Numbered from the stretch's first letter, positions 6,331 to 37,184 are shown. The stretch is 64,000 nt of DNA from Lingula anatina (GCA_051362555.1 CM120641.1:41732401-41796400), one strand, 5' to 3'. Translations and numbers: made by a program. Notes: generated by a model not told the origin, from the sequence alone.

Positions 6331-6857
6331 ATGGGGAACTGTCAGCAAGGCAGTGTCGTCTCTACCCATACCTTTTATGTTCACACAGGAGATATCAAAG
6401 GTGCCGGGACCGACGCTAATGTCACTGTAGTACTACAGGATGATCAGGGGAACAAATCAGCACCTACAAAGCTCGATCACATCCCAAGAAATGACTTAGA
6501 AAGAGGCTCAGTGAATAAATTTAATTTCGCGGTTAACCCCGCTCTTGGTAAAATTCAACAAATCCAGTTCACAATGGACGCAAAGGGAGTCGCGCCCGAT
6601 TGGTTTGTGGACTTGATACGAGTTAAAGATCATCGAGTGAATCCACCCGAAACGTATGCATTTCCAATCCACCGCTGGATTAGACCCAAGCGTCATTACA
6701 CGTTTGAAATATATGATTGCATGCTGCCACAATGTGACAAGAATATAGATCAGAGGAAAGAGGAATTGGAAGAGAAAAAGAAGGCGTATGCATTCAACCA
6801 AGAAAATATAGGTTCTCCGGTACAGGTAACGTCATATACAATTACATTACCAAAGAG

Positions 6858-6907
<50 letters not shown>

Positions 6908-9816
6908 TTATTAAGATTGCTACCCAGTGGGTTGAAGTTATACATAGAATGTTAAGAACATTATGATGATAATAAAATGTTATTTGCTTGAATGAAACTA
7001 AGTTAAAAGACTGCTACTTGAAGGTAAATATATGAATATGCGATTCGTCTTTTAAAGTTGATGATTTATTCTATTGCAAATCATTTTGAGCACGTGGGTT
7101 TATTGTTCTTGTATATCTCTTCACCAAAATTTTTTCACAAATTTTGCAAATGTAGACCATGGACCTGTATGTAACGACCGACCTTAAATTATACTTTTCG
7201 TAAAAATGCTCCTTCTCTTATCATTACCTATTCCTGTACTCCACACACATTGCAGTTTCAAATACAATTCAAATTAATCAAAAGTTTTTTTTTTAATTGT
7301 TACTGCAAAATGACGCAAATACTTGTAATACAGTCGTCCGTTACAACGTAAAAGGTAAATTAAGATTTAACTTGAATATAAATTATTTCCGTTATTTCAG
7401 TCCATATAGAATATTTTTCTCCTTATTATCTCACGTTCATATTTTTTAATGTATTTCTCGCCCCGAAATATTTCCTATACTAATTTTAACTACCACGCTA
7501 AAAAATGCCATCCAAGTTGCCGTATATAAATCAAATTGCCTAATAACATTTTCTTCAGATTGTCACTTTTCCAATCTTTTATTTAGGTAAAGGATTTGCC
7601 AGCGGAAGAGGAATTTTCTCGTTCTTACATGGTAAATTCGCTAATCTATTCGATTGTTTGTAAAAAAAATATACCATGCTTTTGCTAAGTTAAACATTTA
7701 TCATAGATGTATTGTATATGCAGAAACATTCAAAACGTAGTTCACTATATTTATGTAATCATCAAAATTGCTTTAAAGGAAATAACAACAAAAATGCCCT
7801 ATGGTCTCTAGTTTGTCAGTGTGTGACTGTGGGATGTCTGTCGTTGTCTGAAGTATCTTGTTGACATTGGTTATTGGTTAAAAGGATAAACCCTGTTGAT
7901 TTTCATTCGGTTCAGGATTGTTGTCTATATGTACATGTAAAAAGTTGAAATTAACTTGAGGGAAGCCCACTGACTTTTTTGATGTTGTATTATTTTTCAT
8001 TTTTGATGTAATCACTTTAAATTGCGTGAACTGAAACTAGGTCATGACTTCTCCAACTAATCCAGAACCTATCAGGATTGGCAATAGTGTAGGGGTTTGA
8101 AAATCGAAAAATTTACTTCGAAAATACACACGTTCTTCATTAATTTAAGTATCATACTAAAAATATTCATGATATTTATGTTACCTTACATATTTTTTAC
8201 TACTTTTGACGGTTTCGTCTAGATTTCATCAGATCTAGCCCCCCCCTTTTTTATATTACGATTATACATTAAGGAATATATTCGACGGGTGTCATGTTAA
8301 AAAATTATTTTGTCGTAATTATGACGTAATATTTTTTTACATGACACCTGTCAGCTTCCATAAAATTGCACTTCAAGATTTTGCACAAAAAAATCGATAA
8401 CGAACAACCATATTATTAGCGACGCGTGTCATTCACTTTGAACATATTTAGTTTTTAAATAATTTATGACCCATTTTAAGACATGTCTTCACTTCACCCG
8501 CCTTTTAAGCTAGGCTGTATTTTTCTTTTCAGTGGGACCTAGTGTCGCGAGGCGCAAAAATTAAAGTCGAGTCTGGGTTGACCAAGATCGCAACACTTTT
8601 TGACAAGTGGGAGAATTACGAAGATCTGAAACAGCTGTATTCAGGACCGTTTGCGATAGGAAAACCTGACGTAAGTACCTTTTTGGCTTATTTATTTATT
8701 TATTTATTTATTAGAATCCTTGGATTTTAATCTGGTTTCAAAAAAGCTCATTACACGTACCCTGTTGTACTTAATTCACTCTAGTAGAACGCACAGAACA
8801 GATTTGATTAGTTATCGTAAACTGAATGTCGTGACCTAGCATTGTTGATAATTATTTCAGGAAGAAATGAAGTACTGGCAAGATGACGAATGGTTTGGTG
8901 CCCAACGTTTGGCCGGAGTGAACCCTTTACTTATATCATTGTGTACCAATATCCCAGAGAGGTGAGACAGAGAGGATTTTCATAGACGTGGCTTGTTATA
9001 TAAAAACATCCTTTCGATAAACTTAGCCAGAGGCGTTAGGAGCAGGCGTATAAGAAGTAATGCCTTCTATGATTTTAAAACTTCATTGGGTAAAGAATTA
9101 ACGTATTATGGGCGATTTTTATTTTATATTTAGGTTTTTTAAAGTGTTCACTTTTCCATATCTCATATAGGCCTATTTGCGTGAGCTATTTATTATGATT
9201 TCTGGTTTTCGTCGTTTGAGCAGTTAGTTTGATGTAGACACCCATGCAGTAATCAAGTTTTAACAAGAACAATCGACCCAAATAATCGTTTATCAAGCAT
9301 ATTTAAGATAAATAATCGGTTGATTTGGCTGTAATATGGACCCACGGGTTTTCATATATAACTAGGTTTGGGGTGACAGAAGAAATGGTGGAGCCATTCC
9401 TCGAGGGCTACAGTCTAACACAGGCAATGGAGTCCAAGAGACTTTTCATAGTAGATCTAAAAATTCTGGAAGACATACCGCACACACCGGAAGCTGAGGT
9501 ATATGTAACGTCTACACTAATGAACATTGCTGCTATTTGGTGTTAATGAGGGTGATGGGCTATATAAACGGAATATTAGGGAAGCACCTGAACCAACACG
9601 AGAATTCGCATATATGCACATTGTATCCGTCTTTTACGTAACTGTGATATAAATGCATATACTAATAAATGATGACATTTATGTTTTCCCTTTAACTATT
9701 CCCAGGTATGTTCACCTTTGGCGTTGTTCTTTCAAAAAGGAAATGGACGTTTGGTGCCAGTAGCGATTCAGCTGTACCAAGAGAAGGGTCCAAATAACCC
9801 GGTTAGTACTTCCACC

Positions 9817-9860
<44 letters not shown>

Positions 9861-10573
9861 TTTATACCATCTTAAATTGGCAGATCAACCATCGACGAAC
9901 AAGCTAGTTCCCTTAAAACATGTAATTTCAATGTCGAAAGAGAATTCAAAGCCATTTAATAGTAAAGACAATATGTAAGTTTGCATGCATGGATGCATAT
10001 TATATGTGTTTCTCACGCTTCTCTCTTTAGCAATTGACACAGATGTGTCGTCTGAATGTTGCATGGGTGATTTTTCTTTTCGCAGGTGTTTTTGCCTAGC
10101 GACCACCCCGAGACCTGGCTCTTCGCAAAGATGTGGTATAACAATGCTGACGCCACCTACCACCAATCCGTCTCTCATCTTGGTAAGTTACCCGTTTTGC
10201 AAACGAATTATATTAATATAAGCCCGAAAATTGGTCTAAACGCAGTACTCTAGTAATAGAGAGGTACATGTGGTGTTAAAAGATGATCGAAATCTAGTCA
10301 AAGTCTGCTGGCTTCACTCAGCCTATATTTGTCTACTTTAAGTAACATATTGACTCACCTTTTTTAAGAAAAAGGAAAGGAAACAACCACCAGATTTATC
10401 TGCATGGGGGTAGACCTAAGTACTAGTAAATGCTTAGGTGCAATTCTATATACATACGAAACAATCGAAAACACACAGACACGTAAACAAACATTTGCCA
10501 TATTTCCTAAATCACCAAATAATTTTGCTGTCCATCTCTCACTTTTTCATTATTATAATTATCATTATAATTA

Positions 10574-10614
<41 letters not shown>

Positions 10615-12452
10615 CTGTTAGGATTCACGCATCTTTTGATCGAGGGTTTTGCACTTGCAAGCCACAGAAACCTGTCCACCTCGCATCCCGTCTTCAGACT
10701 GCTTGGACCTCACTTTCTGGACGTCATGGCAATTAACAAGTGAGATTTTCGAAAATACAAGGTGTAAATATAAAAAATGACCACACAAAAAAAAATGAGA
10801 CGAGACTTCTCAGCGTTTTGCTTCAAGAAGTAATAGAATAACATCATTTTTATTTATGCAGTTGAGACCAAAAGCTAGTTAATTTTTATAATTTGATTTG
10901 AATGTTTTTACTTCAGAATCATGGTAGAAAAACATAAAAGTACATTTAATTGTTGGTGTATTTCGAATAAACATGAACTAGGTAAATACAGAGTAGGGTT
11001 TTATAATCCACAGATTACAGTATTTATAACATACATATAATACCTTATTTAGGTTGGCGGTTAATTTTCTGGTCGAACCAGGCGGCTGGGTAGATAAAAC
11101 CATGAGCTGCGGACGGGATGGCATGCTTCAGCTAATTTGGAAAGAGTAAGTCTATCAGTTTCAACTATGTTTCAACTGCAGTCGAAAACAAAAACAAGAA
11201 CTCCATGTTCTATACCCATAATGTGGGTTGGAACACATATAAATGTGTAGAATTAATAATAAATAAAAAAACTGGAAATTTTCAACAACTTTCCCTTTAT
11301 AACCAAAGTGTCTTATCAAAAACCGTTGAAAAATTACGATCAATAAGTTCTTTTTCGAGCTCCCAGTGAAGGAAATTGATCTGTCCCGAAATAGGAAAAA
11401 AGCTGGAAAAAAAAGCTCACTATTTTGTCTACTGTTTTGGATATGGTATGCCGTGATCATGTATATGTGCTGAAATACCCAGGGGAATCAATTTTATTAA
11501 TTTTAAGGATTAACTCTCATATTATGATTTTCACGGTATTCTGAAATGAAATATTGTATTTCACAGGTTTGCCAACTGGAGATTGGATGTCAATGGAACA
11601 CTACCGAACTTTCTGAAGGAACGTGGGGTAAATAAAAAATGTCTTATATATTTGCTTCATAGCTTCCTAATATATTGACCTTTGACCAGTTACACGCATA
11701 TGCATACCCCCCTCTCCACGCACACACTCAACAAACACATGTAGATAATGGTGCACGCACGCACGGGTCGCATCTTTACAATGAATTCACTTTCGATATA
11801 TTTCATTGATAGTTATCTAACCATCATGTTTCTTTTCCTTTTTGTTGCACAGCTGTTGGATGAAGAAGTCCTTCCAAACTATTACTACCGCGAGGATGCC
11901 CTGCCTTTGTATTGGATTATCAAGAAATACGTCAGCACTATAATTAACCATCATTATGGTAGGTCTCAAAACATATGCAATTATGCCATACACTGTTCTT
12001 TCCAGAGCATCTATATAAAACAACTGACGAGAACATGTTAATCTTTTTCTAATTCTTTTATTTTTCCTCTAATTCTTTCTAATTTTTCTAATTTATTTTG
12101 AGGGGGTGGGGGAACGGGGGAAAGGCAGTCACTCCCGAATCTATGGGGACCATAATACAATAAAAATATTTTAAAATGACCAGCTAAAAGGATATTGTAG
12201 GATAACCAGCTGTTGCAAAATGTTTTCTCCGTGTTTTTATTTATAGATACGCCACAGAAAATTGCTGATGACTACGAGCTTAAAGACTGGAGACAAGAGT
12301 TGGAACTGGAACAAGAGAAGGGAGGAATGGGGGTGAAGGTGCGTCACAAGGGTGCTCTTTAACACCTTAAACTTTGTACACGAAGACTTTTTTCATGCAG
12401 ATTCTCAAACCTCTGCTTCCCTTGAATACCGACTCGGAAGAATTACATTCCG

Positions 12453-12495
<43 letters not shown>

Positions 12496-14422
12496 AGTGA
12501 GTCCGCCCGATTTTTTATCCACGGCATAAGGTGTCATTTGTTTAAAACAATTTAAAGGACGATAAATATTCTTCATAACGAGATAATGGACTTCATAATG
12601 AAATTCGAATGGTCAGTATTAATTGATTTTTGGACATTATTTTTAGGGAATACCTGGTGACGGGGTGTTCAGCAGCAATGAAGAACTGATCGTGACCTGC
12701 ACCTCTGTCATTTTTATCTCCAGTGTGGTGCATGCGTCCGTGAACTTTGGACAGTTCGCGTCGTACGGTTTCCCGCCAAACTACCCGGCCTACTTGAATG
12801 GCATGCCGCCGACGGACAAGGTAAGCCTGGGTGAATTTATATTTCGGCGAAAATACATAATTTTAGTTTTTGGAATGTGTATGCTCTGAGTGTGAGCATG
12901 TCATGATCAGGAATTAAAATTACAACAGATTTCAAACCTTCCTCGACGAGATGGAAATCCAAAAACGAGTATATTAAGTCCTATGCAAAAATATTGACTA
13001 CTGTACTGATATTCTTCGATTTTCAAATACAGATCACCAGAAATGCTGTGCGACTTTTTTGTACGATATCAGAGAGAAAAGTTTACATTTAGCTTCTGTC
13101 GGTCAGGATAAATCTATCAAACAAATCTTTAATTCAATTTTTCAACAATTCAAACGGGTAAAGCTGGGTTAATATACTCGTATTTTTTCCTGACGCATAA
13201 AAGTTCGTAAAAGTTGTTTTGAAATGAGACATAGAATCCAAAGAATGTGTTATTTCTCCTTATATACTTGGCAATCAATATTTTTTTGTAATTTTAATTA
13301 AGTAGGCCTAAAGTGATTTTAAAAAGCCAACAAACACATACCAATTCACAGACTCGCTAGTTTAAAATTCTGCAGTAACTTGTGTTTATGCGAATCAAAT
13401 ACAAAAGCATAGCTGTAAATTACAATCTAAAAATTCTTTTTTCAAAGACCGTTCAGTGTTCTTTATTATTACTCTATCGCAACCTTATTCTGAGTTGAGG
13501 TAATAATCGATGTTTTTCTTAACAGAATCCGGTGTCTGAGTCAGATATCATGAAAGCCCTGCCAGACAAGTCCCAAACCTTGGAAATTATGGTGATCACA
13601 AAACTTCTTTCTGAAAAGGGCACAAACAGTTTGGGGGATTTTGAAGTCCAATATTTGTTCGATCCTGTCTCCGTCGAAGCCGCTGATACGTAAGTGACAA
13701 TGTTTTCGGTGACGAACATAGAAAAATGAATTGTATTATAATCCTATAGATTTAAAGATGCATACAAAGTCAATTTTTTGTCACAAAAAACAACCAAATG
13801 CCAGCATATAGTTTCAAGTAGTATAACTAAGAGAATTACCAAAAGGCATTGTTTAATTTTACCCGAAAATGATGTTTGAACGGATTCTTCTGCTGGCATT
13901 CTAAGCTGTATGTCAATGGGGCAGGAAAGTAGGTCACGAAAGTAGGTTAAATTTACAACCAAAAATTTAAAGAAAGGAGCAGTCTAAAGGTCTTTTATGG
14001 CTGATCTATTCAGTTTATCCCTTGGCATGTCGAATTTATTTGAGTCATATAAGAATCTAGTAGAAGTGGTTTGCATGTGTTACTGGGAATCCACGCTCCA
14101 CCGATGCTCGGTTCGTATGTACCTTTAAACACTTTTGGTGCACATTTTTATGTGCCCATTCGTACAATATAATCACATCCATAACCACGATCGTATGTCA
14201 TTAACCCTTTTCAAGTATACTGTTTGATGTAAAAATGGCCCAAGAGATAACAATCCATCCTGTTTCATACGTGTCCACTGTGTACCCCTCTCTATTTGTA
14301 ATTTCAGATTTAGGCTAGAACTGGCGGAGCTGGGCAAACAAATCGCAGAAAAAAACAAGAGCCGCTTCCCGTCTTATCTCTACCTGGACCCTACGTTTAT
14401 TCCAAACTCTATCAGCATATGA
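6331..14422 (+). CDS. ALOX: Lipoxygenase (PLAT/LH2 domain + non-heme iron catalytic domain), 15 coding exons, ~675 aa
   Basis: Exons 6331-6825, 7587-7631, 8533-8670, 8861-8961, 9366-9498, 9706-9801, 10086-10182, 10622-10739, 11053-11145, 11567-11627, 11853-11958, 12247-12338, 12647-12820, 13526-13689, 14308-14422. All introns are GT-AG and in phase (2028 nt). Motifs: PLAT TGD..AGTDA and FPIHRW; [17 protein letters not shown]; WLFAK; iron-binding [15 protein letters not shown] and HASVNFGQ; C-terminal IPNSISI*. Confidence 0.96.
6858..6908. repeat. (AAT)n microsatellite in LOX intron 1
   Basis: Direct reading. Confidence 0.9.
10550..10613. repeat. (TAT)n microsatellite abutting the LOX exon 8 acceptor
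   Basis: Direct reading; it produces the poly-I and poly-Y ORF artefacts. Confidence 0.9.
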
Positions 14423-15296
14423 CCCTGTGATGTAAAATGGATACTTCACTGAATTATGGCCGCATTGTTACATAATAGACATACTCAGATGGCATGTCTT
14501 TAAGTTTTCCATCCATTAATGGTTTCTTGCTTAAAGAATGCATATTGTATTGATACTAGGTCTTTTCGAACATTATTTCTGTGGTGATTACTATACTGCC
14601 GTATATAATTTTTCATAATGACTATTTAACTTAATACACAATTACCGGTGGATCCAGAATTTTGCACAAGGATAAAAAATTGCCACGCTTAACAAGCAAA
14701 TGTAAAACAGTAGATGGCATTTTTTCCATTCCACCCTCCGGGAGATGCTTCCGTCTTGCTCTACACCCTTTAGGACCATCATCCGACTGAAAAAAATCTA
14801 TTGCAAAAATTCAAATCGAGAAAAATAGAAAATGCATGTCTTTAACCTAAAGATTTTTTTATTCTTTTTTTAATTTCAATCTATTCGTGACATTCACCAC
14901 ATATATCAAATTGCATTTTGTGTAAGATACTTATCATTTTATTTTATCACTCAGACTTGAATGACTTTTCACCAAAAACCAATATACCGGGAAGAGTGGC
15001 AATTGAGGTCACAGGCTCATAAAAATATTTAGTGCACAGATAACAAACTATGTTTGATTATTTTAGGGTCCTACATGAACAAGTTTGTGTCAACGTTTCA
15101 CTCTCCTGGAACCATGAAAAAAAATTTTCATCGTCTAACCCCAAAATGGAACATACATTCCTGTCACAAATGTAAAACTTCTAGCTGTGCTAACGTTTTA
15201 CTCACTTTGAAAATCCAATCATCACTGGTTTTGTTCGTTAATTTATGTCCTACAAGTATAACGTTTAAAATTATGATAATCTTCTGTATAGAGCGC

Positions 15297-15331
<35 letters not shown>

Positions 15332-16077
15332 TTTTTGAGCGACTTTAGTTTACTTATTTGAATATTATCAAAGGGGGAAAATACACCTTACTGACAGTAA
15401 AATAAGCATCAGTTAAACTACATATTTTTCACTCGTGGTCCAAATATTTTATCAGAAATGCCAAACTATCATGGAGTCACAATATATTTTTCAGTCAGCA
15501 ACAGAAAATCCTGTTTTATTGCAACAAGTGCTTGGGCAAGATGAAACTTTCTGACAATTTTTCTGAGTAGCAAAAGTTACGCAGTATCACCTTTGAGTTA
15601 CAGTTGAAATATTTACAAAAATATCCTTACCTCATCCTTGCCATGTCTGAATCACTACAAAATATATCAAAACGCAATATAAAAATTAAAATTATATGGC
15701 CCGGAACATACGTTACTGGAACATAAGTTACAATTTAGGCTCCTTACATAACGTATAGACATTGTAAATGTAGATGTAAAATTGAGACGGCCGCAGATTT
15801 TTTTTCTACATGTAAACACATATATGATTTAAAAAATTGAATTCAACTTTGAATTCATTCAATTTTATTTTTGGTACTTCAGAATGTGAAATGCACCTCT
15901 ATATTGGGTTTGGGTGTTTTACCAGTGTCTTCTGATAGTCTCTATAGGCCTTACGCTTGAAATATTGGGTGGGTGGGACAGAAAATCTACATTCTCTGCG
16001 TTCATGATGCAAGTACACTAAAGAGCCTTCAAATGACCTACATATACGCTTAAAACTTGTTGTACTTAATCACCTTT

Positions 16078-16236: not shown

Positions 16237-19200
16237 CCTTTTATTTTTGGCAACTACTGACTAATCACGTAACGATATCACACAAGTACTCTACACATAC
16301 TGAACAGTTCACATAATATAATGCAACGCCTGTCTTCGTACCCACAATTGGCGGGGAGGTGAGCTTCTCTCACATCTTGTGGCCATTGTTTTGCTCTTTG
16401 CCAACTTTTTGCTCCATTGTATGGGGGCTGTATGGGTGATCAATTTTAATTGAAATTTGATGTTGTCACAATCCCCCCATCTTGTGACTTCGTATCATAT
16501 TATATTTCGTCATTTTAATAAACGACAAATTTCAGTCATGGGAACTCCTTTCATTTTGAGCAAAAACCCGGAGCTTCGTTGTGTTTGTGCTACATAAATA
16601 AATATATTTACGTTAGTTTGGTTAGAGAGGCCTGACGTCGCAGTATATCCTATACACATGCACGAATGCGGTTCTAGGGCACTAACACGACTAACCGCGA
16701 ACATGACAATGTTACGCTGACGGTAGTACTATACATGTATATATATTCTCAGTCGGAGGACGTCCTGGCTCCTGGTCAAGAATAGTCTTTAAACTGGTCA
16801 AAGAAAAGGTAGGCTGGGCCTTGTTTTTAGATCATAATTATGTGGTGAATTGTATTAACTTAGATCTAAGTATTATAAGTAATGGTGTATATATTCCGTT
16901 TCTTATCAAAAACCCATAAACATACAATCCAGTATATAGGAATGAAGGATCTTTGTAATCCCAAGCAGACTTGGTGTAGAAATGAAAATGAAAATAAAAT
17001 ATGGTAAAGTCCGGAACTTCCTGTGTGATAAGAGTCTGTTGAACAGTGGGAGCGAAACAGCGGTTTACATGCTTTTACATTTGTGTACAACTTGACACGT
17101 GCGTGGACTCTACGAAAAAGAGAAAAAGATATAAGACGTTTTTGGGTGGTAAAGGTATAGGACGGGCAATATCTCCAAATCCCCGGACAACTTAAGGTAA
17201 TTCATACGCTTCGATAAATATAAAATTTTATTTGTCTAAGTGTGTTTCTGTATTTTACCCCCCCCCCCCAACTTAATTTTTTACCTGAGCTATTTTGGCC
17301 GTCTATTCACTGTACAATATTGGCCTACATTCGAAGGTGAAGCGCAGCAATATTTATGACACCTCAACGTGCGGCTCAGGTGAAATAACAATGACCTTGT
17401 TACTGTCATTGTGGATCAACACAATGGTTACAAGGTTTGTTTAGGGGATCCTTTCGGCGATTTCTTTTAAAATCAAGGCGGTCTCCCGTGACTCTACGTG
17501 TACAAATACAAGCTCTGGAATAGTATCAACCACAGGTGTGATATTGCAGTGTCATCGGACACAATTGTATGCGGACCGAGAGACATTAAGGTGAGCTCGG
17601 GACACCTACGATAATTTACATATCACTGACAAGTGATGTATCGTGTACTTTTATACAAAGCAGGGATGCACAGTCTGGCTCACATACATCTGCCGAGGTA
17701 AGTTATACATACAGTAGGATCCAACATAATGTTGATAAAGTTGTAAAAGGCACCAGCAGGTTTTTGGCTTGTCGCTGTTGCCCTGTCGTTTCAATGAAAT
17801 CGATGTTTATTATCTTTCAAATATGGAACGTTTGCTACATTGTGCTATTTCTCATTTACGCCACCCATATCTTAACAATGTTTGGTTACCTGTGATGAAA
17901 TAAGTATACCAATGGGGGTAGACATTATGGTGGTTAACAATATTCATGATGAAATATTAAAAAACACTTTATAAGTTTTAGCATAAACTTGGGTTCAGTA
18001 CAACATGAATTACACCAAGAAGTCAACGGAGAAAGGGAAAAAAGATAACATGTTAAATTATACATGCACATTGAGGTGCACGAAAAGAAACTAAGCCGGA
18101 GTACATTGAATATGCAATGGGAAATATTCATCGACCCAGTCTAGAATAGCCACCAATATTACAAAATATATCAACAAGTCATATATAACAAAGACTGAAA
18201 TGAATATAAGATTTTAGCTCTAAAGCTTTAATTGCATACGGTTTTTGTTTTAAGCGTTTATTTAATTGATACAATCTTGTAATGAATACGAAGGAATAAG
18301 CATTAATGATCTTCAAGAATGGTTTAGAATTAAACGACCATCACGCTTTCAAGTCCCAAACTGACCAATTCTCTGTTAGGATGTTTTAAGATATCATTTT
18401 CCTTATTCGGCTTAAACCGCGGGAACAATCACGTGAATTCCTTGCATTTTCACTTGCCTAAAATTGCAGTTTAAGAGTTACAATTTCACTTCTAAGAAAG
18501 GATATCACTCGCTTGAACTCCTCAAAAAAGATAAAGAGACTTCATAAAAAGAACATCGGGGTTTTTTTTTAATCGCTAAAATTATTCTGTTTAAATACAT
18601 AATATATTCTGTACCTATCTAAAACGAAGACGAACCACCACCACCCCCCCACCCCCCCAAAAAAAAGAATAAATAAGAAGGGATATGGAGACTTCATTCA
18701 ACTCCCTTCTCCCAAGGGGGTAAAACCTGGTATGCAACTCACAGATATACTCCATGTTGATCCAAATTCCGACATATTTCAACAATATATAATCTTATTA
18801 CTTCTATAATAAGGAGAAATAAGATATTTACCCAACCCCACCTTTTTCCTTGAATATCCTGGACCACTAGCGTCGATACTTACAACAATCTCATACAGAT
18901 GGTGCTACTTACCCAGTAAATAGCAAGCACGTGTAATTTGATCATTCTATCCACTGCACGCATATTATCACGCAGTTTTAGAAGTATTCACCACGTTTTC
19001 TCGCTCACACAGACCAAACAGTTTTCGTCTTCCTTTTTGTTGTGATATACTAGAGTAGTCTGGAGCGGATGCCTTTGAAAGAGCTAGGTACATGTAAGTA
19101 TGAAGCCAAAATTTTATAACTAAGGGACAAGCTGTTATCAGCAGAGTCACTCGCGTTATCGTTTGATATTCTAAAGGGTATTGTTTACCCTCGACGAGGT

Positions 19201-23672: not shown

Positions 23673-24400
23673 CTTGTGAATATGAAGGAAATGAATTGAT
23701 TTATTTCGGAAAGTGCTTGCAACTTTGAAAATGCAAAATTATTATTAATATTTTACCTTAATACTTTGTTCATTTGTCACTCTTCATTCCAATTACCTAA
23801 ATTTTGTTTCGCTTTGAAGACGTTTTTTTTTGTGTGTGTTTTCTAAATCTTAGTAAGTAGAATATAAATCTTTCAAATTAAATATTCCCCAGGTTTTAGA
23901 AGATGTCGGTATACTACAGAGTATCAAGAGATTTGGTGGGGCTAGCGCAGGGGCGTGCGTCGCAGGTCTACTCAGTCTTGGATATAAACCGGGAGACATC
24001 GCCGCCCTGCTGAATCTGGACCAGAAGTCTATAACTGACGGTGAGTCGTTGCCATACGTTTTCTAATAAATTATGGAATACAAAATAAACTGTGTTCAGA
24101 TTTCTAAGATATGGGAGCCTACAATATCATCTCTTGTGTATTTGCTATTAAATGTGTTTAATTACATTTTTTCATTTAAATTGCACTGCATGTAAATGTA
24201 TATTTTCTGATATACTAATATATACTAGTATAGCCTTTCATTATTTTGCACAACAGCACGTATTCACCATGTTTTGTGTATTACTTTCGTATTTCTTTCT
24301 AAGTCGACATTCCTGGCGCATATAGAGTTTCACCCTGGCTGCTAAGTTATAAGCCCTACATCATGCGGATTCTCGAACATTTCTACTCGAAAGATTTCCA

Positions 24401-24469
<69 letters not shown>

Positions 24470-27034: not shown

Positions 27035-27073
<39 letters not shown>

Positions 27074-28557
27074 CTTTTGACTTGAACCCGCCGTTCTGAA
27101 CACTGACATTCCATTTCAGCTCCAGAGCCGGGATCCGACGTCAGTTCGTGTTCTGTTTGGCGATTCGTTTGATATGGATGCCTCATTTACCGAGCTAGAT
27201 TATAACGAAGACAAAATGGTAAAATGACGACACAAAATCCAGTTGGTGTAACTTTGTATTATTTTTAGCTTTCATTTTAGAGTTTAATCGAAAGAAGGTA
27301 AGTTATTTTGTCAGTTGTTTAGTTATGTTTTGGGCTTATTGTCTGTCTGTTTGTCTGTCCTTCCGTTCTTCTGTCTCCTGTTTAATGATTTTGTATTTTC
27401 CCTGGTTGCAGGTAACGGCCACTGAATTCATGACATTTTTGGAGAATAAAGGCGTTGTCAGTCCTCTGGAATATATCCTTGACGTCTCCAACACGCCCAT
27501 CCAGTCTCTGCAGGACTACATAGGAGCTTTATTGTCCACATACGACGTCTCGTCGCAAAGGCAATATGTTAAGGTGCGTATGATAGGCCTACAAGCCAGA
27601 GATTCAGAGCCGACGAGGACCAACTTCTTTGTTTTTAAATTTTCATGTCCCCTTGTCAAGTCTGAAATTTAGCGGCGTTTGACTGTTCAAAAGATTACAG
27701 TGCCTAGCTATCACAAATGTTAGACGTGTCTGTTAACCAAGTTATGTACCATCGGATGGCTTCTGGGGAACTACAGAACTCAGATGACTGGGTACTCGTT
27801 TCTGAGTGTTGTGTATGGTTTAAACTTAACCTGTCCTATAACCGTTCGTTTTTGGAGATTTGAAAATTAAGAAGTTGGCAGGCATCGGACCTGAAGCTTA
27901 GGCTAGATGCATATGTATTATCAGTGTTAACAAACGCATCATTCACATCCTGGACATATTTGTGCGGCGTTGTAGCACTTCGTGGTGAAACTTGCTCTTA
28001 CAGAAAATGAATGGTTATGGTACTATTATATATTTTCTAGGCTTCCGATTCTGAGCGTACAATAGGTATCTGCACAGACTATATTAGTACGCTAGACATG
28101 GACATGGAGGAACAAGACAAAATTTTCCTGCGAAAGGTATGTGATTCTCACCCACCCCACCCCCTCCTCCCACCTCCGACACACAGTATACACACAGTAT
28201 GCCTTAAATATACATGTACACTGTACCTTGGTGCCTTTCCAAAGAAAATCCTAACTTTCACAGTGTGCGGATATTTTCATAATTCAAACTTGTGTACTCT
28301 TTGAATTTTTTTCTAAAAGTTATTTATTTTTTCCTTCAATCGTTTGTGATATATTGATTAAAGCAGCCAAAAGTAAAAGTTTTCAGATATTGGCAATTAA
28401 ATGTTGGGATTAAATGTTCAGATGGACCCAACCCAATTTTATATCACATTTAAATTTTTCCTTTTCCTTCCTTTTGTAGCAAGGGCGATCCGGAACTACG
28501 GCATTTTTAAGGGAATATGCCAAAAAGTGTAATATCCCACTGAAAACTCAGGAGTGA
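19452..28557 (+). CDS. Patatin-like phospholipase (ExoU/VipD-like bacterial-type motifs) with inserted EF-hand pair, copy 1; 12 coding exons, ~508 aa
   Basis: Exons 19452-19631, 23893-24040, 24539-24675, 24839-24974, 25336-25431, 25623-25762, 26015-26112, 26557-26713, 27120-27218, 27412-27573, 28041-28136, 28480-28557 (1527 nt, in phase). Motifs: oxyanion NLVLEGGGTKGTAYPGA, nucleophile GASAG, RMSASIPG, catalytic YVDGGMLCNYP, EF loops DLNRDGRISLTE and DYNEDKMVTATE. Confidence 0.93.
20777..20840. repeat. (TA)n microsatellite
   Basis: Direct reading. Confidence 0.95.
21071..21326. mobile_element. PIF/Harbinger-like MITE with long imperfect TIRs and TAA TSD
   Basis: Left end ggactcattcccactgacactatcggtctacg...gatccaactccgcgggga is the imperfect reverse complement of the right end. 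GG...CC termini, with TAA at 21068-21070 and 21327-21329. Confidence 0.75.
22737..22951. mobile_element. Related MITE copy (imperfect inverted repeats with gatcgatc core)
   Basis: gaccccattcccacagattttagatcgatc pairs with gatcgatctaaatctatgagaatgcagtc; shares the gatc..aactcc..gggga core with 21071-21326. Confidence 0.65.
24402..24466. repeat. Compound (CT)n(GT)n microsatellite
   Basis: Direct reading. Confidence 0.9.
26878..27035. mobile_element. Truncated fragment of the same MITE family
   Basis: gaccgcattc...ggatcgatctaactctgtgggaga and agggtaatta resemble 22737-22951. Confidence 0.5.
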
Positions 28558-31355
28558 TTCTGCACTCTGGACATGTTACCGGCAGCAGCCGACAAACCAC
28601 GTGCTTGTGCTGCCTACCATAGGCCATCCGCGCGATGACGTCGTTTTTGTTAAAAAAATTTGCTTCAGCAAAGAAGTGTGCACATAATACTATCCAGAAA
28701 ATATCTGTCAATATCTGTTCAGATATTTTCCCTGTGACCCTGGTAGAGGGTTATGTGCTTGGATAATATATTATAATTTATTCTCATTGTGCTATTAACG
28801 GGCTAAGTGTTGGGGGTTTTTTCGTTTGGTCGTTTACACTTAGATGCATAATAGAAAAGACCGAGAATAGGAATGAGTTTTATGACTATGCAAAACGATT
28901 CCAGTGAGTTGTAATGGTGAATGAGCACCCTAAATTCAGAGTGACAAAACAATCGGAACATATACCTTTGTTACACCAATTATAGAAAATAAAGTATGAA
29001 AATGAACTATCCATGCATGGCGATTTAATGTTCCAGTGGTTAGGATGTCTTTTTAGATTTCTTTTTTTTTTTGTTTTCAGTCATCAGAGTCGTCATCCTA
29101 AGAATTGTGTTAGGTAAAAAAAGAAAACGAAAACTGAACTGAATTCCAGTTTTTCACAAAATGCAGGATGCAAAGCATGCGATGAAAACACAGAATTTAA
29201 CGGACATGTTGTGTCATCAGTGGGTAATATGGCTGCTGGAGGTTAGAAATATGTCATCAAATTTTAAAGACAGTTTTGATCTGCATATGCTCCACAGAAT
29301 GTTCATAGCGATATCTGGATTGGACAACCAGTTTTGCTTTTAAAGAACTGATGACGTTGTTAAAAAGTACAATAATATATTATCTATTAGAATGGTCGTT
29401 GTTCCAAGGATTTCTATTTGATAACGTTATATACTGTATAATGATAATACTCACTTTGGAACAAAGTATTACCACCCCAAGTGAGAATTGTTTACAGGTC
29501 TACCAACAAACACCCAACGGCCTGTTGGCATTCAGCTATATGATGCTCTTGTGACAAAAGCGAAACGTAGCTTTTTCTTAAATATTCTGTTCCAAAATAA
29601 ATGATTGTTATCACAAAATGTTCTTAGATATAATAATCATTTAATATTCAGTTACGTTATAGCGTTAACTGATCAATTATCTACAGTCACGTTTAACTTG
29701 AACGGTATATTTTGTTTAAGAACATACACGTGCGTCCCTAGTGCGGCCTTAGGTTAAAGAACTGTGCAGAGCTGTGTAACAGTGATGCCATTTATCCTAA
29801 TTTATATTACCGTGAACAATTTAAAATGCTTGTGTTTAGCTTGCCTGTAATGATCACATAGTGATATCAACTCATCTCTGATTGGAGAATAAATAAAGAT
29901 AATACTAGTTAAAAATAAAAAAGCAGATTTAAAGAAGAAATATTGGTGTGTGTTTGTTATGTTTTAAGCGTATTTATTATATAATTTTATACGATTGGCC
30001 TTTTCAAATGTGCATCAACATGCAATATCTGCACGCTTTTGATAGAAAAGATATGTCACGCTGACACAATGCTGTTCTGGTTGATTTTATTAAGTACATC
30101 GAGACCTGGACGCCACTGGTTGGCCTAAAACTTAGTATTCCAAACTAGAATTTATACTTATAAAATAAGAAGTGTGCCATGCTGTTGTCGCTCTATTCCA
30201 ATAAAGAAAACCACATAGACATTTCGGAGATGAAAGAACGAAATTCACATTCTATGGCCCAAGGCTGGATATTAAAATATCATGAGGAATATTTGGTCTA
30301 GTGGCTTTGTACTACCAACCCAACCACCGCTTACCAGTGATTTAGAAAACAAACCAGCGCACACCCAATGGAGGTGAATTACCCTGGGTTAAGAGTTTCT
30401 TTGAAGCTCGGTACCTGTGTTGTGTGCTGAATCAGCTCTAAGTAAAATCATGTCCCACCCGATCTTTCTTCCTTAAAGGTAATCCTTAACACATTCACCC
30501 CATATTACTGGCGTTGTAAAGTGTAATGCATACCACTGCGTTTGCGCTCCGATCCAAAAAGACGGGTTACACCAATGAATCCACGATTTGCTTTAATAAT
30601 ATAATTAAGCCCTACTTGTCCCAATACACTTGTCACCCAAAATGTAAGTACTCAACGGTATGTTGGGCATAGTTAGGTATGAAAATACCGCTTGGTTTTT
30701 TTTGTTTTTTTTTTTGGGGGGGGGGGGTCGAGATGGAGGAACTTTGGAATCTAAGAAGGGTACACGTACCCACTGTGCGACCCCGTGGGTCTGCCACGGA
30801 GGCTGTTGTCTTGTATATCCCAACAATGTGACGCAGTTATCATTACCTGATGTGGCCTGTGAAAGTAGGGCAATACTGCGCGGTTGATGAAACTTCTACT
30901 ATTTGTATGCTGCCTTCTGTCAGGGCGTCAAAATATTTCAGCAGACTATACCCATAAACGGGCTATTCTGTGATAAATATTTCATCGCATGTGTTAGTGA
31001 GTGAAAACACGATAATATGGAAGATGTTTCATAGGGCGGTCTTTCCTGTTAGGACCGGCTGTCATTAGACAAAAGTGAACTATCCGACTTACGGACTATT
31101 GCTCAATATCAACGATGGAGAATGCATACACTGTAGCTGTAGCCTAATTTGTGTGCAGCATGTGCCCTGGATGCGGCCTGTGCTTGCTATTTATATATAA
31201 ATACGGCACATAAACCGCAAAGATGGATTCATTGAACCTACTTGATTATTCATGATGTCACCTCATTAAAGGATTCAAATAAAGGCCAGAATTTTACGAA
31301 TAGAGCAGGGAGAATCGTTCATTTGAATAGCAGGTGCTCGTGCACCTATTAAACC

Positions 31356-33195
31356 ATGGGAATAACTTGGCCTATACGCTACAAACTACCACATGAACCG
31401 CCGCCAGCTCTCGATTTATCTACAGAGGTGAATAGAAATGTGTATATCGACCTCGCCAGGTACGACTGGCCCTTTGAAAACCTCGTTCTGGAAGGCGGCG
31501 GTACGAAGGGGACGGCATACCCTGGCGCAATTCAGGTATGGACCGGTACGGGAATCGCACATAGTGTTGCCATGGTAACGGTTATTAAAATGTGATGATA
31601 GAATGTTTTATTTGACGAGAAATACTAGAATGACTCACCAAAATAAAGGAAATTCTTTGTCATAATGGTAGACCTTCACAACAATAAGTTAAACATAAGT
31701 TTATCCCTTAGAAGGTCATACAGTGTATGAGGCAAACCATAAATAATAGCACCCATAACTAAACCGGTTATGGGTGCTATTATTGTACCGTACCAGCAGG
31801 CTTTATAAATATAACAGCGTAGAAACGTATTTCAAGACATTGAGGAGAATTATCTGAGCGAGATACTCCACTAGAACGTGTTTTTTCTTTATTGTTAAGA
31901 TCTACTTTGCCTTCCCCATGCATCCCATGGCATTTTAGCCAACGGACTAATTAATTTTTATTTTTGTATTTTAGGTTCTGGAAGATGTGGGAATACTTCA
32001 GAGAATTAAGCGGTTTGGTGGTACCAGTTCGGGGGCCAGTGCGGCCGGTTTGCTCAGCGTGGGGTTTAAATCAGGAGAGATCGCCGCGTTGTTAGACATG
32101 GACCAGAGAGTAATCTTAAAAGGTAGATTCTTGATTCTTGATCCAATTAATGATTATTTGGTACATACCAATAGAGTTACGGAATGACAGAATGATTCAA
32201 GGGATTTTCATATAATTATTTTTGTTTTGGTGCAGCATACAGTATACAAAATGTCATATTTTATTTTATTATATTTTATTTTATAATAATGGCATTTTTA
32301 TTCTTGCAACTAAAAATCGGATTGCTCACCAACTATTAGAGTGTTACATGTAGAAGTAACTTAAACGTTATATTGGTCTAAACATCAAGACCCATGCGAT
32401 TGTTTTCTTACTTTTAAATAAGGACTATCTTTGACAGTAGACCAAACGAATCGTTATCACCTAGAGTATGACGTCACAAATTAAGATCTACAGCCAAAGG
32501 ACTTGCTAGATCATACTAATGCCAAAACACAGTGACTTAAAATTGGATGTAGCAATGCTTCTCATTTGTTTATAATATAAGTAAGCGACTGGTAGTCTGG
32601 CAGATATTTACTTTCGCGTGTTTTAGGATAATGGTAAAACTCACATTACTTTATACTTTACCCGTTTCAGACGCTAGAGGAGGGTATTTTTCGTTAGTGC
32701 CAAATTTTCTACGCCTATTTGGCTGGAATCCAGGCGACAGATATCTCAACTTGCTGAAAATGTGCATGAGACACAAGACCGGTAATCCAGACTACACATT
32801 CAGACAGGTGAGGCTACTCATCAACAACAAATCTTTTTTTATATTTCTCATTCATTTCGCACTTGAAATTTCAGAAAGAGAAATAGTTGACAAACGAATC
32901 CGTTGGCTTCAAGACTTTTTGATTTGAAGATTGTGATTGGCAGTTTGTAAAGTAGATTGTTTAGATCTAAATGTTTTTTCTTCAGTTATATGACGACAAG
33001 GGGCTTGAACTGTGTATTGTTTGCGCCAATGTCAGTAAAAAGAACATTGAATATTTCCACCCAAAGACGACACCGGATGTACCCATTGCGCTTGCAATGC
33101 GCATGTCTGCAAGTATTCCAGGTGAGTGAGTGCCAATCAAAAAACACTTAAATGTCCGACACTGCCAATAACATGTCAAACCATGCAACATTGTA

Positions 33196-33273
<78 letters not shown>

Positions 33274-36200
33274 AACGTATTTATACTGGAGAGTGTCTTG
33301 AACATATCTCTTGCCTTAGTGTTTTTTCAGCCTAAAAGTCTAGAAAAGACAGGGAACAAGCATTACCTTGTTGATGGTGGCTTAATATGTCCTTATCCTA
33401 TCCATGTCTTTGATGGTAAGTGTAATCAGCTTTGCTATGTTAATCGTACTATTATATAAGCGTTCTGTTGTCGATTTGGCCTTGCTCCTGAGCTGCTTTC
33501 TTTCTCATGTGGTTTCCCATTCCTGTTTTTCATTTTTGCGTTTATCTTGCTTGTGTTCCCGAAGGTAAAAAACCGTGTTTGTATGATTTCTGGTTTTAAA
33601 TTGTGCTATATGAAACTGCAGATTGGAAAATTTTAAGAAGGTCCCTTACGTTCAAAATCTTTTGAATATTTTTGTACAATTCTGTATTTTAGTGAAAACC
33701 GAATTGCCTGGGGTACGTTTTGTTCTTGAATTTAGAAAAAAATCGAAAATCATCTTTGATGGCGTTTTCCATATCGGTACATAAAACAATCGCCTCTTGT
33801 ACGGTATCTTACCTCACTTATTCCAAAGTAAAATTACAAAATGTTAAAAAAAATACACCTGTTTATTGGCTAACTCGCATTCTGTTCTATTCTGACAAGA
33901 AACCAAACCATTTTCCACCAATTAAATGTATTGCGTTTAAACTCAGGTTGGTTTCTATCAATGCGGCCAGAGGATTCGTTTTTTAAGAGGCTAGGTACGG
34001 AGGAGGATCCGTTTGAGAGGCCGATGGGACAGTTTTCAAATTGCAGACATAAACATGAGACAATAGGAATAGTGTTGGTAAGTTGTAGTCATTAAGTGTA
34101 TCGTGACTAAATGTTGAAAAGATGAAACGTTGCAACTTTTGGTACATCTAACAATGTGCTTGTGATTCAAACATGCGTTTAGTTCGAATGTTTCGATTGT
34201 TTTAAGGGTTTAAAAACACCAATCTATTGAAGTATTACAATATTTATAATATGTTGTGTTCTAAGACGTCCATCAACCCATTCATGCCACCTGTACGTTT
34301 TCATTTGACCGAAGTTTTATTTCTAGACAAAATAGTGAACTCCCTGTTCTATGCTTCTAATCTCCGCCCGTTATGCACGCGACTTTAAACTGCTAAGCAC
34401 TAAAGTTATGTAAGATATTTTTTCTGGAAATTTTCGAAGCTTAATGAGGTTAATAAATAGAATGTTTATTTTAATCCCTCTAGGTTATTATATAGAAATT
34501 GTATTTTACTTCGAACTGCGTTTTAGTATGCTACGGATGAGCTAGACCTGATGAGGGTGGGGACAAATTCACGTGACCTACAGGAAAAAGCATCATCACA
34601 AAGACCGGACACGCCTCTGGCTAGGTATGTTAACACACTTAAAGCTAGAATCGCTTTATTGCTTATATCTTTATGGTATGACCAGTTTAAGGATCCAATA
34701 CACACTCTGTGTGTGTGTCTGTGTACGGTGTCGGAACCATGCAGCAATTTATTCATTGGAGGCGCAAACTAACTGTGTAACTTTAAGTCTTTTTAGAGAG
34801 TGATTAAAAAGTCATTATAGATTTCAGAGTGCGCAACAACCAATCTAAGATGCAGAGTTTTTAATTGACATTTGTAATAATTTTAACTCATGTTATCTGC
34901 TAAGGCTGCGTGGACAACACATGGATAAGGTGAAAGCAGACGAAGACAAGAAATTACAGATTTCAAGCGCTGCGAAGACCGTGTTCAGAGCATTCCATGA
35001 CAAGGTCAGTGACCAGGAGGGAGGCATCAGCCTAGGCGAATATCGAGAGGTCATGAAAGAGGTAAATTTTTGTATAGAACACGTCCATTTTGGCAACAAA
35101 TTGGATGAATTGGAAAACGTTTGTATTTTGCTGAATTTGGTCACTTACGGTTTATTATTATTTTTTTTAAACCAAAGTTGGATTTTTGGCTCTTCGTGAC
35201 GTCAACTACGTGTGGTGTCTATTTGCAGTTGTAGTTTTACATTTGTCCAGTAGTGTTTCTTTACCATATTTTGTTGGGATTGTTTATACAATAAAAAAAA
35301 ACCATTTGCACAACTCCGCCTGCCACATAACCAACATTTGAGGTTGTATAACATTTTTACCTGCATTTCAGCTCGAAACCCGAGATTCCGAATCTCTTCG
35401 AATTTTATTTGGGGATAATTTCGACATTGACTCCACGTTTAGAGAGCTGGATTATCAACAAGACAAACAAGTATGTGTTCTCAAGTTAATTTTTTTTCTG
35501 CATTTCATGGCAACATAGACATGTCAGTACTTATCACTATAGAACATTCCAATTTTCTTTTGGGTTTGAAGTAAAAAAACAAAGTGAAAAACAATTACGG
35601 TTCAGTTGTCACGAAAAGATCGCAGTTTATTTATTTATCTTTTTATACTTTTCATTTCTATTTTCATTTAGTTCTTTTGTTCCAATTTTAAGCAGTATAC
35701 AGTTATTAGAGATACATTTTACACTCTTTACATATCTGAGAAATACTTATTGTTTTACAAGTTCCCATGGTAACGAAATTCACATTCAATGCTATTTTAT
35801 TACGAAATTTACACACACAATTTATGCACTTTCAAAATAGAAAATCCCATAATTACCTCTTTTTTATTTTACAAGATAACAGCAGTAGAGTTTTTTGCCC
35901 TCCTGGAGAAAAAAGGTGTTATAAGCCCGCTTGAGAGCACGCTTGGATTTGCCACTTCACCCATTCTATCGGTGAAAGACTATTTTAGTGCATTAGTAGC
36001 TACTGTCCACGTCTCGTCACAGAAACAATATATAACGGTAAGTTGTGACCAAAAATAAAAGAGACGGCAATTTTCTTTAAAAAAAATAACACCGAAGAAA
36101 AATAGCATTTTAAATTAGTTAATTTAAAAGAAACGCTAAAAAATGAATTTAGAAAGCGAAATCATATTTCACTTACACATGCGAGCGTTTTATCGACAAT

Positions 36201-37184
36201 ATGTGGGTAGTGGGGGTAAGTCCAAGGGCTGTCAAGATGGAAATAAACGGTATGTGTATTAATTAATAAGCATTTTCCTTACGAAATAAAATGAGAACTT
36301 GCGATTGGTATGAAATCTCATATCATCGTTCCAGAAAGGTCGGAATCTGTAAAAGCGAAGCACACAGCGTGAGATTAAAATACGTTCTGCGTCAGACACA
36401 AGTTAAGGCTCCTTGTGTTAAATATACCCACTGAAATATGTGTATTGCCGACTTGTTTTGAAAGCAGGGAAACTGCAGTTGTGTCCGTATAAATGTTACC
36501 AGCACTGTATAATGCTGTTTTCAATTTCAGGCCTCAGATGTGGAGCGTACCATTGGCGTGTGCACGGACTATATACGAATACTGGATTTAAATATGGTAG
36601 CAGAAGACAAACTTTTTCTGCGGCAGGTAGGGAACTTTATTCATAAATTTGTTTAAAGACATGATTCCCAAAATGGTGTAATTTTATGTAATGTTCAAAA
36701 TATAAGTTTACAAATAATTTCAAATTATTTAGTTCAATCATTTAGTTCTGTTTTATAATAGGCGGAGGTCTGTGCTTTTGAGATGTTCTTTTTTACAATA
36801 TAAAGGAAAATTACATAAATCTATGATTACAGTATGCGACGTGGTGATCATACAAAATATTTCGGTCTTTCCTTGTGCGAATCATAATTTTAGTGAAGTT
36901 TAACCCGGTAGTATAGAATCTCTTTAGGCTAATATCATTTCTCTTTGTAAAAGTAAACCTTTTTAAACCAAAGATTTTTTCAGTTTAAATATTGGAAAAT
37001 TAGTTATGAAAAATAAAATTTTAAGGAAAAAATGCAATTATTTAAGACCCTCATGTGGTTTTTATTTTTACTGGGTATAGCTACAGTACATTATTCTTTT
37101 TTCACGTTTCAGCAAGGACGCCTCGGCACCGTTTCCTTTTTGCGGGGATATCTACAAAAGAATTCGATTCCTCTGAAAAAATGA
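31356..37184 (+). CDS. Patatin-like phospholipase, tandem paralog copy 2 with degenerate EF-hands; 12 coding exons, ~503 aa
   Basis: Exons 31356-31535, 31975-32122, 32671-32807, 32986-33121, 33320-33415, 33947-34077, 34527-34624, 34905-35061, 35372-35470, 35876-36037, 36531-36626, 37113-37184 (1512 nt). Ten of 12 exon lengths are identical to copy 1. Motifs: NLVLEGGGTKGTAYPGA, GTSSG, RMSASIPV, LVDGGLICPYP. Confidence 0.93.
33198..33269. repeat. (TA)n microsatellite
   Basis: Direct reading. Confidence 0.95.

What the first reader, a model, noticed from the sequence alone, without database searches (positions are those of the whole stretch)
6331..37184. Candidate animal oxylipin gene cluster: lipoxygenase plus two EF-hand patatin phospholipases, all co-oriented
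Seen: three consecutive + strand genes, a lipoxygenase with all iron ligands and two patatins with Gly-rich loop, GxSxG and DGG, with no other gene recognised between them. Established: patatin-fold enzymes release fatty acids from membrane lipids, lipoxygenases oxygenate free polyunsaturated fatty acids, and PLAT domains and EF-hands are Ca2+-responsive modules. Inference: these are consecutive steps of one pathway (Ca2+ rise, PUFA release, hydroperoxide formation) clustered on the chromosome, possibly for wound, immune or defence signalling. Clusters of non-homologous pathway enzymes are uncommon in animals. I am not aware of a described LOX/EF-hand-patatin cluster but cannot verify novelty.
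Basis: partly seen in the sequence, partly recalled or inferred. Interest (0 to 1): 0.85.

Follow-up and report, generated by a model that had tools for sequence, protein, structure and literature searches.

The report
Brachiopod lipoxygenase beside twin calcium-motif lipases
In a Lingula brachiopod, an intact fatty-acid-oxygenating gene sits next to a duplicated pair of predicted phospholipase genes, but the three were not switched on together in the RNA runs examined and no such adjacency was found in other animals, so this is likely an ordinary neighbourhood rather than a co-regulated pathway cluster.

Summary
The window is from Lingula (LOX model 651/675 residues identical to L. anatina). 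It holds three co-oriented, intact genes: a 15-exon PLAT-lipoxygenase with all iron ligands, and two 12-exon patatins that are a Lingula-specific tandem duplicate (67% identical). Only patatin 1 keeps two consensus EF-hand loops. The co-regulated cluster reading is not supported. Patatin 1 is expressed in 8 of 8 RNA runs and LOX clearly in 1 of 8. Patatin 2 is near zero in 4 of 4, including the LOX-positive run. Of 28 other animals with listed homologues of both, 25 have them on different contigs. Three share a chromosome (about 2-3 expected by chance), with distant accession numbers. Some leads point the other way. An EF-hand patatin of this clade abuts an AOS-LOX gene in alga-like contigs. 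LOX-like genes flank related patatins in 5 of 80 bacterial loci. An amphioxus patatin carries an unexplained LOX name. The more useful result is the family: an uncharacterised ExoU/VipD-like patatin with an inserted EF-hand module, found from sponge to amphioxus, a candidate Ca2+-regulated phospholipase of invertebrates.

The parts
6331..14422 (+). Lipoxygenase gene (PLAT + LOX, 675 aa, 15 exons: 6331-6825, 7587-7631, 8533-8670, 8861-8961, 9366-9498, 9706-9801, 10086-10182, 10622-10739, 11053-11145, 11567-11627, 11853-11958, 12247-12338, 12647-12820, 13526-13689, 14308-14422); no AOS domain; Ala410 at the stereo-determining site
   Evidence: 651/675 identical to L. anatina P0001; PLAT, LOX Pfam; alignment to 11R-LOX; sense reads in run X6
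14423..15700 (+). Likely LOX 3'UTR (inferred); overlaps repeat-derived reads
   Evidence: sense depth 21-26 in X6 against 1-8 in X5
19050..19093 (+). PAT1 non-coding first exon (approximate start)
   Evidence: GT-AG joint 19093-19357; molecules begin at 19050 in X7
19452..28557 (+). PAT1: ExoU/VipD-like patatin with inserted EF-hand module, 508 aa, 12 coding exons (19452-19631, 23893-24040, 24539-24675, 24839-24974, 25336-25431, 25623-25762, 26015-26112, 26557-26713, 27120-27218, 27412-27573, 28041-28136, 28480-28557); S78, D219; EF loops at 346 and 391; MGxxxS N-terminus
   Evidence: splice joints and expression in 8 of 8 runs
28558..29874 (+). PAT1 3'UTR (approximate end)
   Evidence: continuous depth, molecules end at 29874 in X9
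31356..37184 (+). PAT2: tandem paralogue of PAT1, 503 aa, 12 coding exons (31356-31535, 31975-32122, 32671-32807, 32986-33121, 33320-33415, 33947-34077, 34527-34624, 34905-35061, 35372-35470, 35876-36037, 36531-36626, 37113-37184); catalytic motifs intact, EF loops degenerate
   Evidence: 336/503 identical to PAT1; 94% to L. anatina P0168; near-zero RNA over exons 1-2 in 4 of 4 runs

Best explanation
A lipoxygenase gene and a tandemly duplicated patatin pair lie side by side in Lingula, most likely as a lineage-restricted neighbourhood without shared regulation. PAT1 is expressed in every run examined (shown). It is predicted to be a membrane-targeted Ser-Asp phospholipase tuned by Ca2+ binding to an EF-hand module inserted into the patatin fold (inferred from motifs and a model of the PAT2 orthologue). 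PAT2 is a weakly expressed duplicate whose EF loops have drifted from consensus (shown). The LOX is strongly on in only one run (shown) and is predicted to make S-hydroperoxides (Ala410; rule recalled). PAT1 could still supply LOX substrate in cells where both are on, as an always-on lipase does for a restricted LOX in mammals (recalled), but that would not depend on the genes being adjacent.
For: Expression: in X5 against X6 (same study, equal letters read) LOX exon depth goes from 0 to about 26-33x, while PAT1 falls from about 27-34x to 17-18x and PAT2 stays at 0-2x. In the other 6 runs the LOX exons scored are at most about 4x while PAT1 is 25-53x. Synteny: 25 of 28 other animals have their listed LOX and patatin homologues on different contigs. 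The 3 on a shared chromosome match a chance expectation of 1.8-3.5 for 24 chromosome-scale assemblies, and their accession numbers lie 759, about 3,400 and over 17,000 apart; the Nematostella pair is on different scaffolds in an older assembly. Trees: PAT1/PAT2 fall in a Lingula-only clade (support 99-100), as do the Lingula LOXs. The other listed Lingula LOX records (5 scaffolds) and the third Lingula patatin lie on unshared scaffolds.
Against: The L. anatina reference keeps LOX and the PAT2 orthologue on one 641,317-bp scaffold. LOX-fold genes abut patatins of this wider clade in alga-like contigs (L041, L045, L046) and in 5 of 80 bacterial genome loci, although such LOX-like genes are rare in sampled genomes. 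An amphioxus EF-patatin with no LOX domain is named 'Arachidonate 5-lipoxygenase' by its source, which may reflect a LOX neighbour. PAT1 is on in the one LOX-positive run.
Confidence: 0.7

Rival explanations
1. A functional oxylipin cluster: Ca2+ activates PAT1 (and PAT2 in a rare cell type), the released polyunsaturated fatty acid is oxygenated by the adjacent LOX, and selection keeps or repeatedly recreates the linkage.
For: Complementary chemistry with intact motifs. Both proteins begin Met-Gly, as do 70 of 112 patatin and 65 of 122 LOX homologues. LOX/patatin adjacency recurs in alga-like and bacterial loci. The amphioxus naming hint has a parallel: other amphioxus patatins are named after an annexin, beside a 1078-aa member that UniRef names Annexin.
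Against: No co-expression in 8 runs. No adjacency shown in 28 other animals. LOX-adjacent patatins are scattered on the tree and their close relatives lack the neighbour: L022 against L100/L021, and no LOX end in the roughly 0.8 kb left on L037/L038/L040. Only 1 of 32 long-type bacterial genome loci has a LOX-like neighbour, and none of the 107 neighbour ORFs from 30 other EF-type loci scored as LOX or haem dioxygenase. Two LOX loci found from the LOX side have no patatin in 18-19.5 kb.
Confidence: 0.18
2. The link is real but reversed or protective: the LOX oxidises membrane lipids directly and the patatin removes the oxidised chains (repair or release of preformed oxylipins).
For: A patatin is proposed to hydrolyse oxidised galactolipid chains in Ostreococcus (bioRxiv 10.64898/2026.02.10.705097, passages read). 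Peroxiredoxin or glutathione peroxidase genes flank some bacterial EF-type patatins (L015, L028, L091, L095).
Against: It carries the same lack of co-expression and of conserved synteny, and no substrate evidence exists for either enzyme.
Confidence: 0.07
3. PAT2 is a decaying duplicate, so the region is one working lipase, one relic and an unrelated LOX.
For: Near-zero RNA in 4 of 4 runs and degenerate EF loops.
Against: Open frame, all 11 introns GT-AG, intact Ser/Asp motifs, 99% identity over aligned columns to the reference orthologue, and an annotated RefSeq model.
Confidence: 0.05

Closest known systems
Marine invertebrate PLAT-lipoxygenases (11R-LOX 3vf1; LOX part of the coral AOS-LOX protein 2fnq/3dy5; human 5-LOX 3o8y)
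   Same: PLAT + LOX architecture, iron ligands, C-terminal Ile
   Different: Ala rather than Gly at the stereo site (40 of 118 homologues Ala, 76 Gly); no AOS domain despite the RefSeq name
Coral AOS-LOX fusion protein
   Same: Two oxylipin steps physically coupled at gene level; the LOX domain is homologous
   Different: That is one fused protein with a catalase-like domain acting after LOX; here separate genes and a lipase. An AOS-PLAT-LOX fusion does occur beside a patatin in alga-like L045
ExoU/VipD/PlpD-type patatin phospholipases
   Same: Closest solved relatives by sequence (E about 1e-18) and fold (VipD E 6e-9); Gly-rich loop, GxSxG, DGG
   Different: Intron-rich animal genes with a helical EF-hand insert; far below the VpdC family cut-off (57-66 of 1000 bits); no evidence of an effector role
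Mammalian cPLA2/5-LOX axis (recalled)
   Different: cPLA2 uses a C2 domain, not EF-hands, is only a weak fold match (E 6e-3), and its gene is not clustered with the LOX (recalled)
Animal biosynthetic gene clusters (sponge oroidin bundle; mollusc and soft-coral clusters cited in PMC12833800, passages read)
   Same: Adjacent non-homologous enzyme genes in an animal genome
   Different: Those are conserved across species and tied to a product; this pair is seen only in Lingula, is not co-expressed in the runs examined and has no known product

Membership tests
Lipoxygenase (PF00305) | N-terminal PLAT domain followed by LOX catalytic domain | tested here: met
   PF01477 E 2e-22; PF00305 on exons; P0001 domains
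Lipoxygenase (PF00305) | Iron ligands: three His, Asn/His and C-terminal Ile | tested here: met
   H367, H372, H554, N558, I675
Lipoxygenase (PF00305) | Dioxygenation of polyunsaturated fatty acid | not testable with these tools
   Needs enzyme assay
AOS-LOX fusion protein (RefSeq name of the orthologue) | Catalase-like AOS domain before the LOX | tested here: not met
   Model starts with PLAT in exon 1 and is 675 aa; the orthologue lists only PF01477 and PF00305
Patatin/PNPLA phospholipase (PF01734) | Gly-rich loop, GxSxG serine, DG(G/A) aspartate | tested here: met
   Both PAT1 and PAT2; DGG in 111 of 114 aligned rows
Patatin/PNPLA phospholipase (PF01734) | Patatin fold | tested here: met
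   Model of the PAT2 orthologue P0168, pLDDT 89.9, matches VipD, CapV and patatin; the window proteins themselves were not folded
Patatin/PNPLA phospholipase (PF01734) | Acyl hydrolase activity and substrate | not testable with these tools
   Needs assay
EF-hand Ca2+ sensor module (PAT1) | Paired 12-residue loops with acidic or amide ligands at 1, 3, 5, 12 | tested here: met
   Two loops at 346 and 391; the second has Lys for the usual Gly6
EF-hand Ca2+ sensor module (PAT2) | Paired 12-residue loops with ligands at 1, 3, 5, 12 | tested here: not met
   No loop fits the pattern that 107 of 112 homologues meet at least once
Legionella VpdC effector (NF043045) | Curated score cut-off | tested here: not met
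   57-66 bits against 1000 for P0168, P0201, P0136
Animal biosynthetic gene cluster | Adjacent non-homologous enzyme genes | tested here: met
   LOX stop to PAT1 first exon 4.6 kb; PAT1 stop to PAT2 start 2.8 kb
Animal biosynthetic gene cluster | Co-expression of members | tested here: not met
   8 runs for LOX against PAT1, 4 runs for PAT2; tissues unknown
Animal biosynthetic gene cluster | Linkage conserved across species | tested here: inconclusive
   Same scaffold in the L. anatina reference; 25 of 28 other animals on different contigs and 3 on a shared chromosome; indirect test on incomplete lists
Animal biosynthetic gene cluster | Members act in one pathway to a product | not testable with these tools
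   Needs reconstitution and LC-MS

The most novel reading that the evidence does not exclude
EF-hand ExoU-like patatins are the Ca2+-triggered fatty-acid-releasing partners of lipoxygenases across life: the pairing is selected again and again, giving LOX-patatin gene pairs in Lingula, probably amphioxus, a marine picoalga (with an AOS-LOX fusion) and several bacteria, and it supplies marine invertebrates with an undescribed cPLA2-independent entry to oxylipin signalling.
Probability: 0.2. Interest if true: 0.72.

Novelty: new member of a known kind. Interest (0 to 1): 0.33.

Why it matters
As a cluster it is probably ordinary. What remains useful is the patatin family: 277 proteins passed the search, among them sponge, cnidarian, mollusc, annelid, bryozoan, echinoderm, hemichordate and amphioxus members, the named ones carrying only automatic labels (mostly 'uncharacterized' or 'hypothetical'), with relatives in myxobacteria and actinobacteria. 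It combines a patatin active site with an inserted EF-hand module, so it is a direct, testable candidate for a Ca2+-activated phospholipase upstream of invertebrate oxylipins. If the recurrent LOX adjacency proved to be selected, it would assign a function to that family and add a lipid-signalling example to the short list of animal gene clusters.

Tried and rejected
No whole genome is held for the window, so neighbourhoods in other animals could not be read directly; contig length and accession order were used as proxies, and accession order was not calibrated against position. No RNA holder was listed by index; the 9 runs came by species label and 8 were laid, X3 was not. A first hand-drawn LOX model had off-by-one exon ends and was corrected against P0001. 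The idea that LOX reads failed to lay through divergence was rejected, since X6 lays at about 30x (86% threshold). The idea that P0156 or any fetched protein is a LOX-patatin fusion was rejected: 0 of 286 proteins hit both models; fusions over 1036-1182 aa lay outside the two main searches, and the one 'longer' search was weak. The column-based count for the first EF loop failed twice through misalignment and was replaced by a pattern count. The Atlas search with one exon was uninformative; with P0201 it confirmed the family and showed no cluster with a LOX domain. Four look-ups in earlier findings returned nothing. Ten paper searches listed no paper whose title or abstract start describes EF-hand patatins of invertebrates or a LOX-patatin cluster; only listings were seen, apart from passages of two papers, and subscription journals are mostly not searched. 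The patatin tree is the quick one, as the careful search did not finish. No complex prediction was run, since no binding is claimed.

Full report
Source and gene models. The window is an intron-rich animal stretch. The first LOX exon matched a Lingula anatina protein at 90% and the full 15-exon model is 651/675 identical to it, with all introns GT-AG, so the window is from Lingula. The LOX has a PLAT domain and H367, H372, H554, N558 and terminal I675, which align with the matching residues of a solved 11R-LOX. It has no catalase-like domain, so the RefSeq name 'allene oxide synthase-lipoxygenase' is a borrowed label. Ala410 aligns with Gly of the 11R enzyme; by the Coffa-Brash rule (recalled) this predicts S products. 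PAT1 (508 aa) and PAT2 (503 aa) have 12 coding exons each, the same intron phases and 336/503 identity. Both keep the Gly-rich loop, S78 and D219. PAT1 has two EF-type loops; PAT2 has none that fits a pattern met by 107 of 112 homologues.

What the patatins are. They belong to a family in which 277 proteins passed E 1e-20 (120 listed), from sponge to amphioxus, with long EF-type relatives in myxobacterial and actinobacterial records and matching Atlas clusters. The closest solved relatives are VipD and ExoU. A model of the PAT2 orthologue (pLDDT 89.9; that protein lacks 19 residues including the first EF loop) places a helical block, residues about 309-438, between two core strands, so the EF module is inserted in the patatin fold. 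On a quick tree of 81 rows (39 of the listed animal proteins, 40 of 192 loci, 2 window models) PAT1, PAT2 and the reference Lingula proteins form a Lingula-only clade (100), with PAT1/PAT2 as a duplication inside it (99). The Lingula LOXs are also a lineage-specific clade in a 31-row tree.

Expression. Eight of nine listed RNA runs were laid; exonic reads carry several differences from the window, so they come from divergent animals, and tissues are unknown. PAT1 is on in 8 of 8, with 10 of 11 coding introns among the joints shown. LOX is clearly on in 1 of 8 (X6, about 26-33x over two exons) and at most about 4x over the exons scored elsewhere. PAT2, covered only and only over exons 1-2, is 0-3x in 4 of 4. 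In X5 against X6, from one study and equal in letters read, LOX goes from 0 to about 30x while PAT1 falls by a third to a half and PAT2 stays near zero. This shows independent regulation in these samples. It does not exclude PAT1 feeding LOX where both are present, and no wounded or infected sample is known to be included.

Synteny. No animal genome could be read directly. I compared contig lengths and accessions of listed homologues (best 120 of 291 LOX; best 120 of 277 patatins; cluster members). In the L. anatina reference the LOX and the PAT2 orthologue share a 641,317-bp scaffold; no PAT1 orthologue was among those listed. Of 28 other species with both, 25 have them on different contigs. 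Antedon, Ptychodera and Nematostella share a chromosome, against 1.8-3.5 expected by chance for 24 chromosome-scale cases with 10-20 chromosomes assumed (species are not independent). Their accessions are far apart, and the Nematostella genes are on different scaffolds of an older assembly. Unlisted paralogues and mixed assembly versions limit this test.

Evidence the other way. Scanning 192 loci around patatin relatives for LOX-like frames gave 9: three alga-like metagenome contigs where an SSD-patatin-EF ORF abuts an AOS-PLAT-LOX ORF; two near-identical actinomycete EF-type loci (L100, L021), the first also holding a haem peroxidase; and four operon-like loci with a short patatin lacking the EF insert. 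By collection that is 4 of 79 metagenome, 5 of 80 genome (1 of 32 long-type, 4 of 48 short-type) and 0 of 33 viral loci; many loci have short flanks. The bacterial partners have a LOX fold and are rare: 0 of 400, 1 of 150 and 1 of 300 other sampled genomes. So the bacterial short-type pairing is non-random, though it may be one mobile cassette. For the EF-type it is weak. Close relatives lack the neighbour, and none of 107 neighbour ORFs from 30 other loci scored as LOX or haem dioxygenase. Cystobacter has four LOX matches more than 1.5 Mb from its EF-patatin, and the two LOX loci found from the LOX side have no patatin in 18-19.5 kb. The amphioxus protein P0156 is a plain EF-patatin named as a 5-lipoxygenase. 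Other amphioxus patatins take an annexin name beside a double-length member named Annexin, so a LOX neighbour is a fair guess, but I could not test it.

Literature. Ten searches of the open library listed nothing that describes this family or such a cluster (listings only). PMC12833800 (passages) states that most animal pathways appear not to be conventionally clustered and identifies clusters by comparison across genomes; the word lipoxygenase does not occur in its main text. bioRxiv 10.64898/2026.02.10.705097 (passages) proposes that an Ostreococcus patatin removes oxidised acyl chains; its supplements were not consulted.

Verdict. The anatomy is shown. Enzyme activity, Ca2+ control and product chirality are inferred. 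A co-regulated cluster is not supported by the two tests available. I put 0.70 on an ordinary Lingula neighbourhood, 0.18 on a functional release-then-oxygenate cluster, 0.07 on a reversed or repair link and 0.05 on PAT2 decay. Interest 0.33, carried mostly by the uncharacterised EF-hand patatin family and the recurring LOX adjacency outside animals.

Noticed in passing
L045:7229-11296 (+) and L045:11694-17621 (-); also L046, L041: Intron-poor eukaryotic metagenome contigs (picoalga-like; inferred from gene content) carry a sterol-sensing/Patched + patatin + EF-hand ORF (1355 aa) tail-to-tail, about 400 bp apart, with a catalase-like + PLAT + LOX ORF (1975 aa). A relative 84% identical in DNA shows no LOX end in the roughly 0.8 kb available.
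   Followed up: partly
L121:7257-10981, L127, L134, L138: Operon-like pairs in Saccharospirillaceae, Chitinophagales, Lewinella and Saprospiraceae records: a hydrophobic N-terminus fused to a highly divergent LOX-fold protein missed by Pfam, directly upstream of a short patatin. LOX fold supported by HHalign 93% and by Foldseek on a low-confidence model, pLDDT 54, best E 3e-9, all listed hits LOX. Found in 0 of 400 other sampled genomes of that phylum.
   Followed up: partly
L100:6016-11425; L021; L202: Actinomycete locus with animal-type haem peroxidase + divergent LOX + EF-hand patatin. The peroxidase/LOX pair recurs in G779 without a patatin.
   Followed up: partly
L011, L080, L085, L088, L092: A permuted papain-like amidase (Peptidase_C92) lies just downstream of the EF-type patatin in 5 of 30 loci scanned.
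   Followed up: no
P0156 (KAI8509171.1): Branchiostoma belcheri EF-hand patatin named 'Arachidonate 5-lipoxygenase' although it has no LOX domain; possibly inherited from a merged neighbouring gene model, untested.
   Followed up: partly
window 38036-about 42400 (-): Otopetrin gene ending 852 bp from the PAT2 stop, convergent (PF03189 E 5e-49).
   Followed up: no
window 47679-about 52400 (+): Sp-family transcription factor by its Sp-box and Buttonhead-box-like motifs (recalled motifs).
   Followed up: no
window 57049-60804 (-): Acidic, repeat-rich ORFs with 21- and 24-bp tandem units, unidentified; CpG counts fall from 42-94 to 5-28 per 2 kb beyond 48 kb, consistent with gene-body methylation there.
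   Followed up: no
window 815-1924 and 5171-6310: The 1.1 kb just upstream of the LOX start is duplicated at 90.6% identity 4.4 kb further upstream, without the coding exon.
   Followed up: no
window 22734-22947 and 13752-14006: Short intronic repeats with very high two-strand RNA coverage, loose ends and (at 22.7-22.9 kb) fold-back joints, likely a MITE or SINE.
   Followed up: no
window 14293-14449: 10-14 antisense-oriented reads over the last LOX exon in runs X1 and X2, with several fixed differences; a paralogous or antisense transcript.
   Followed up: no
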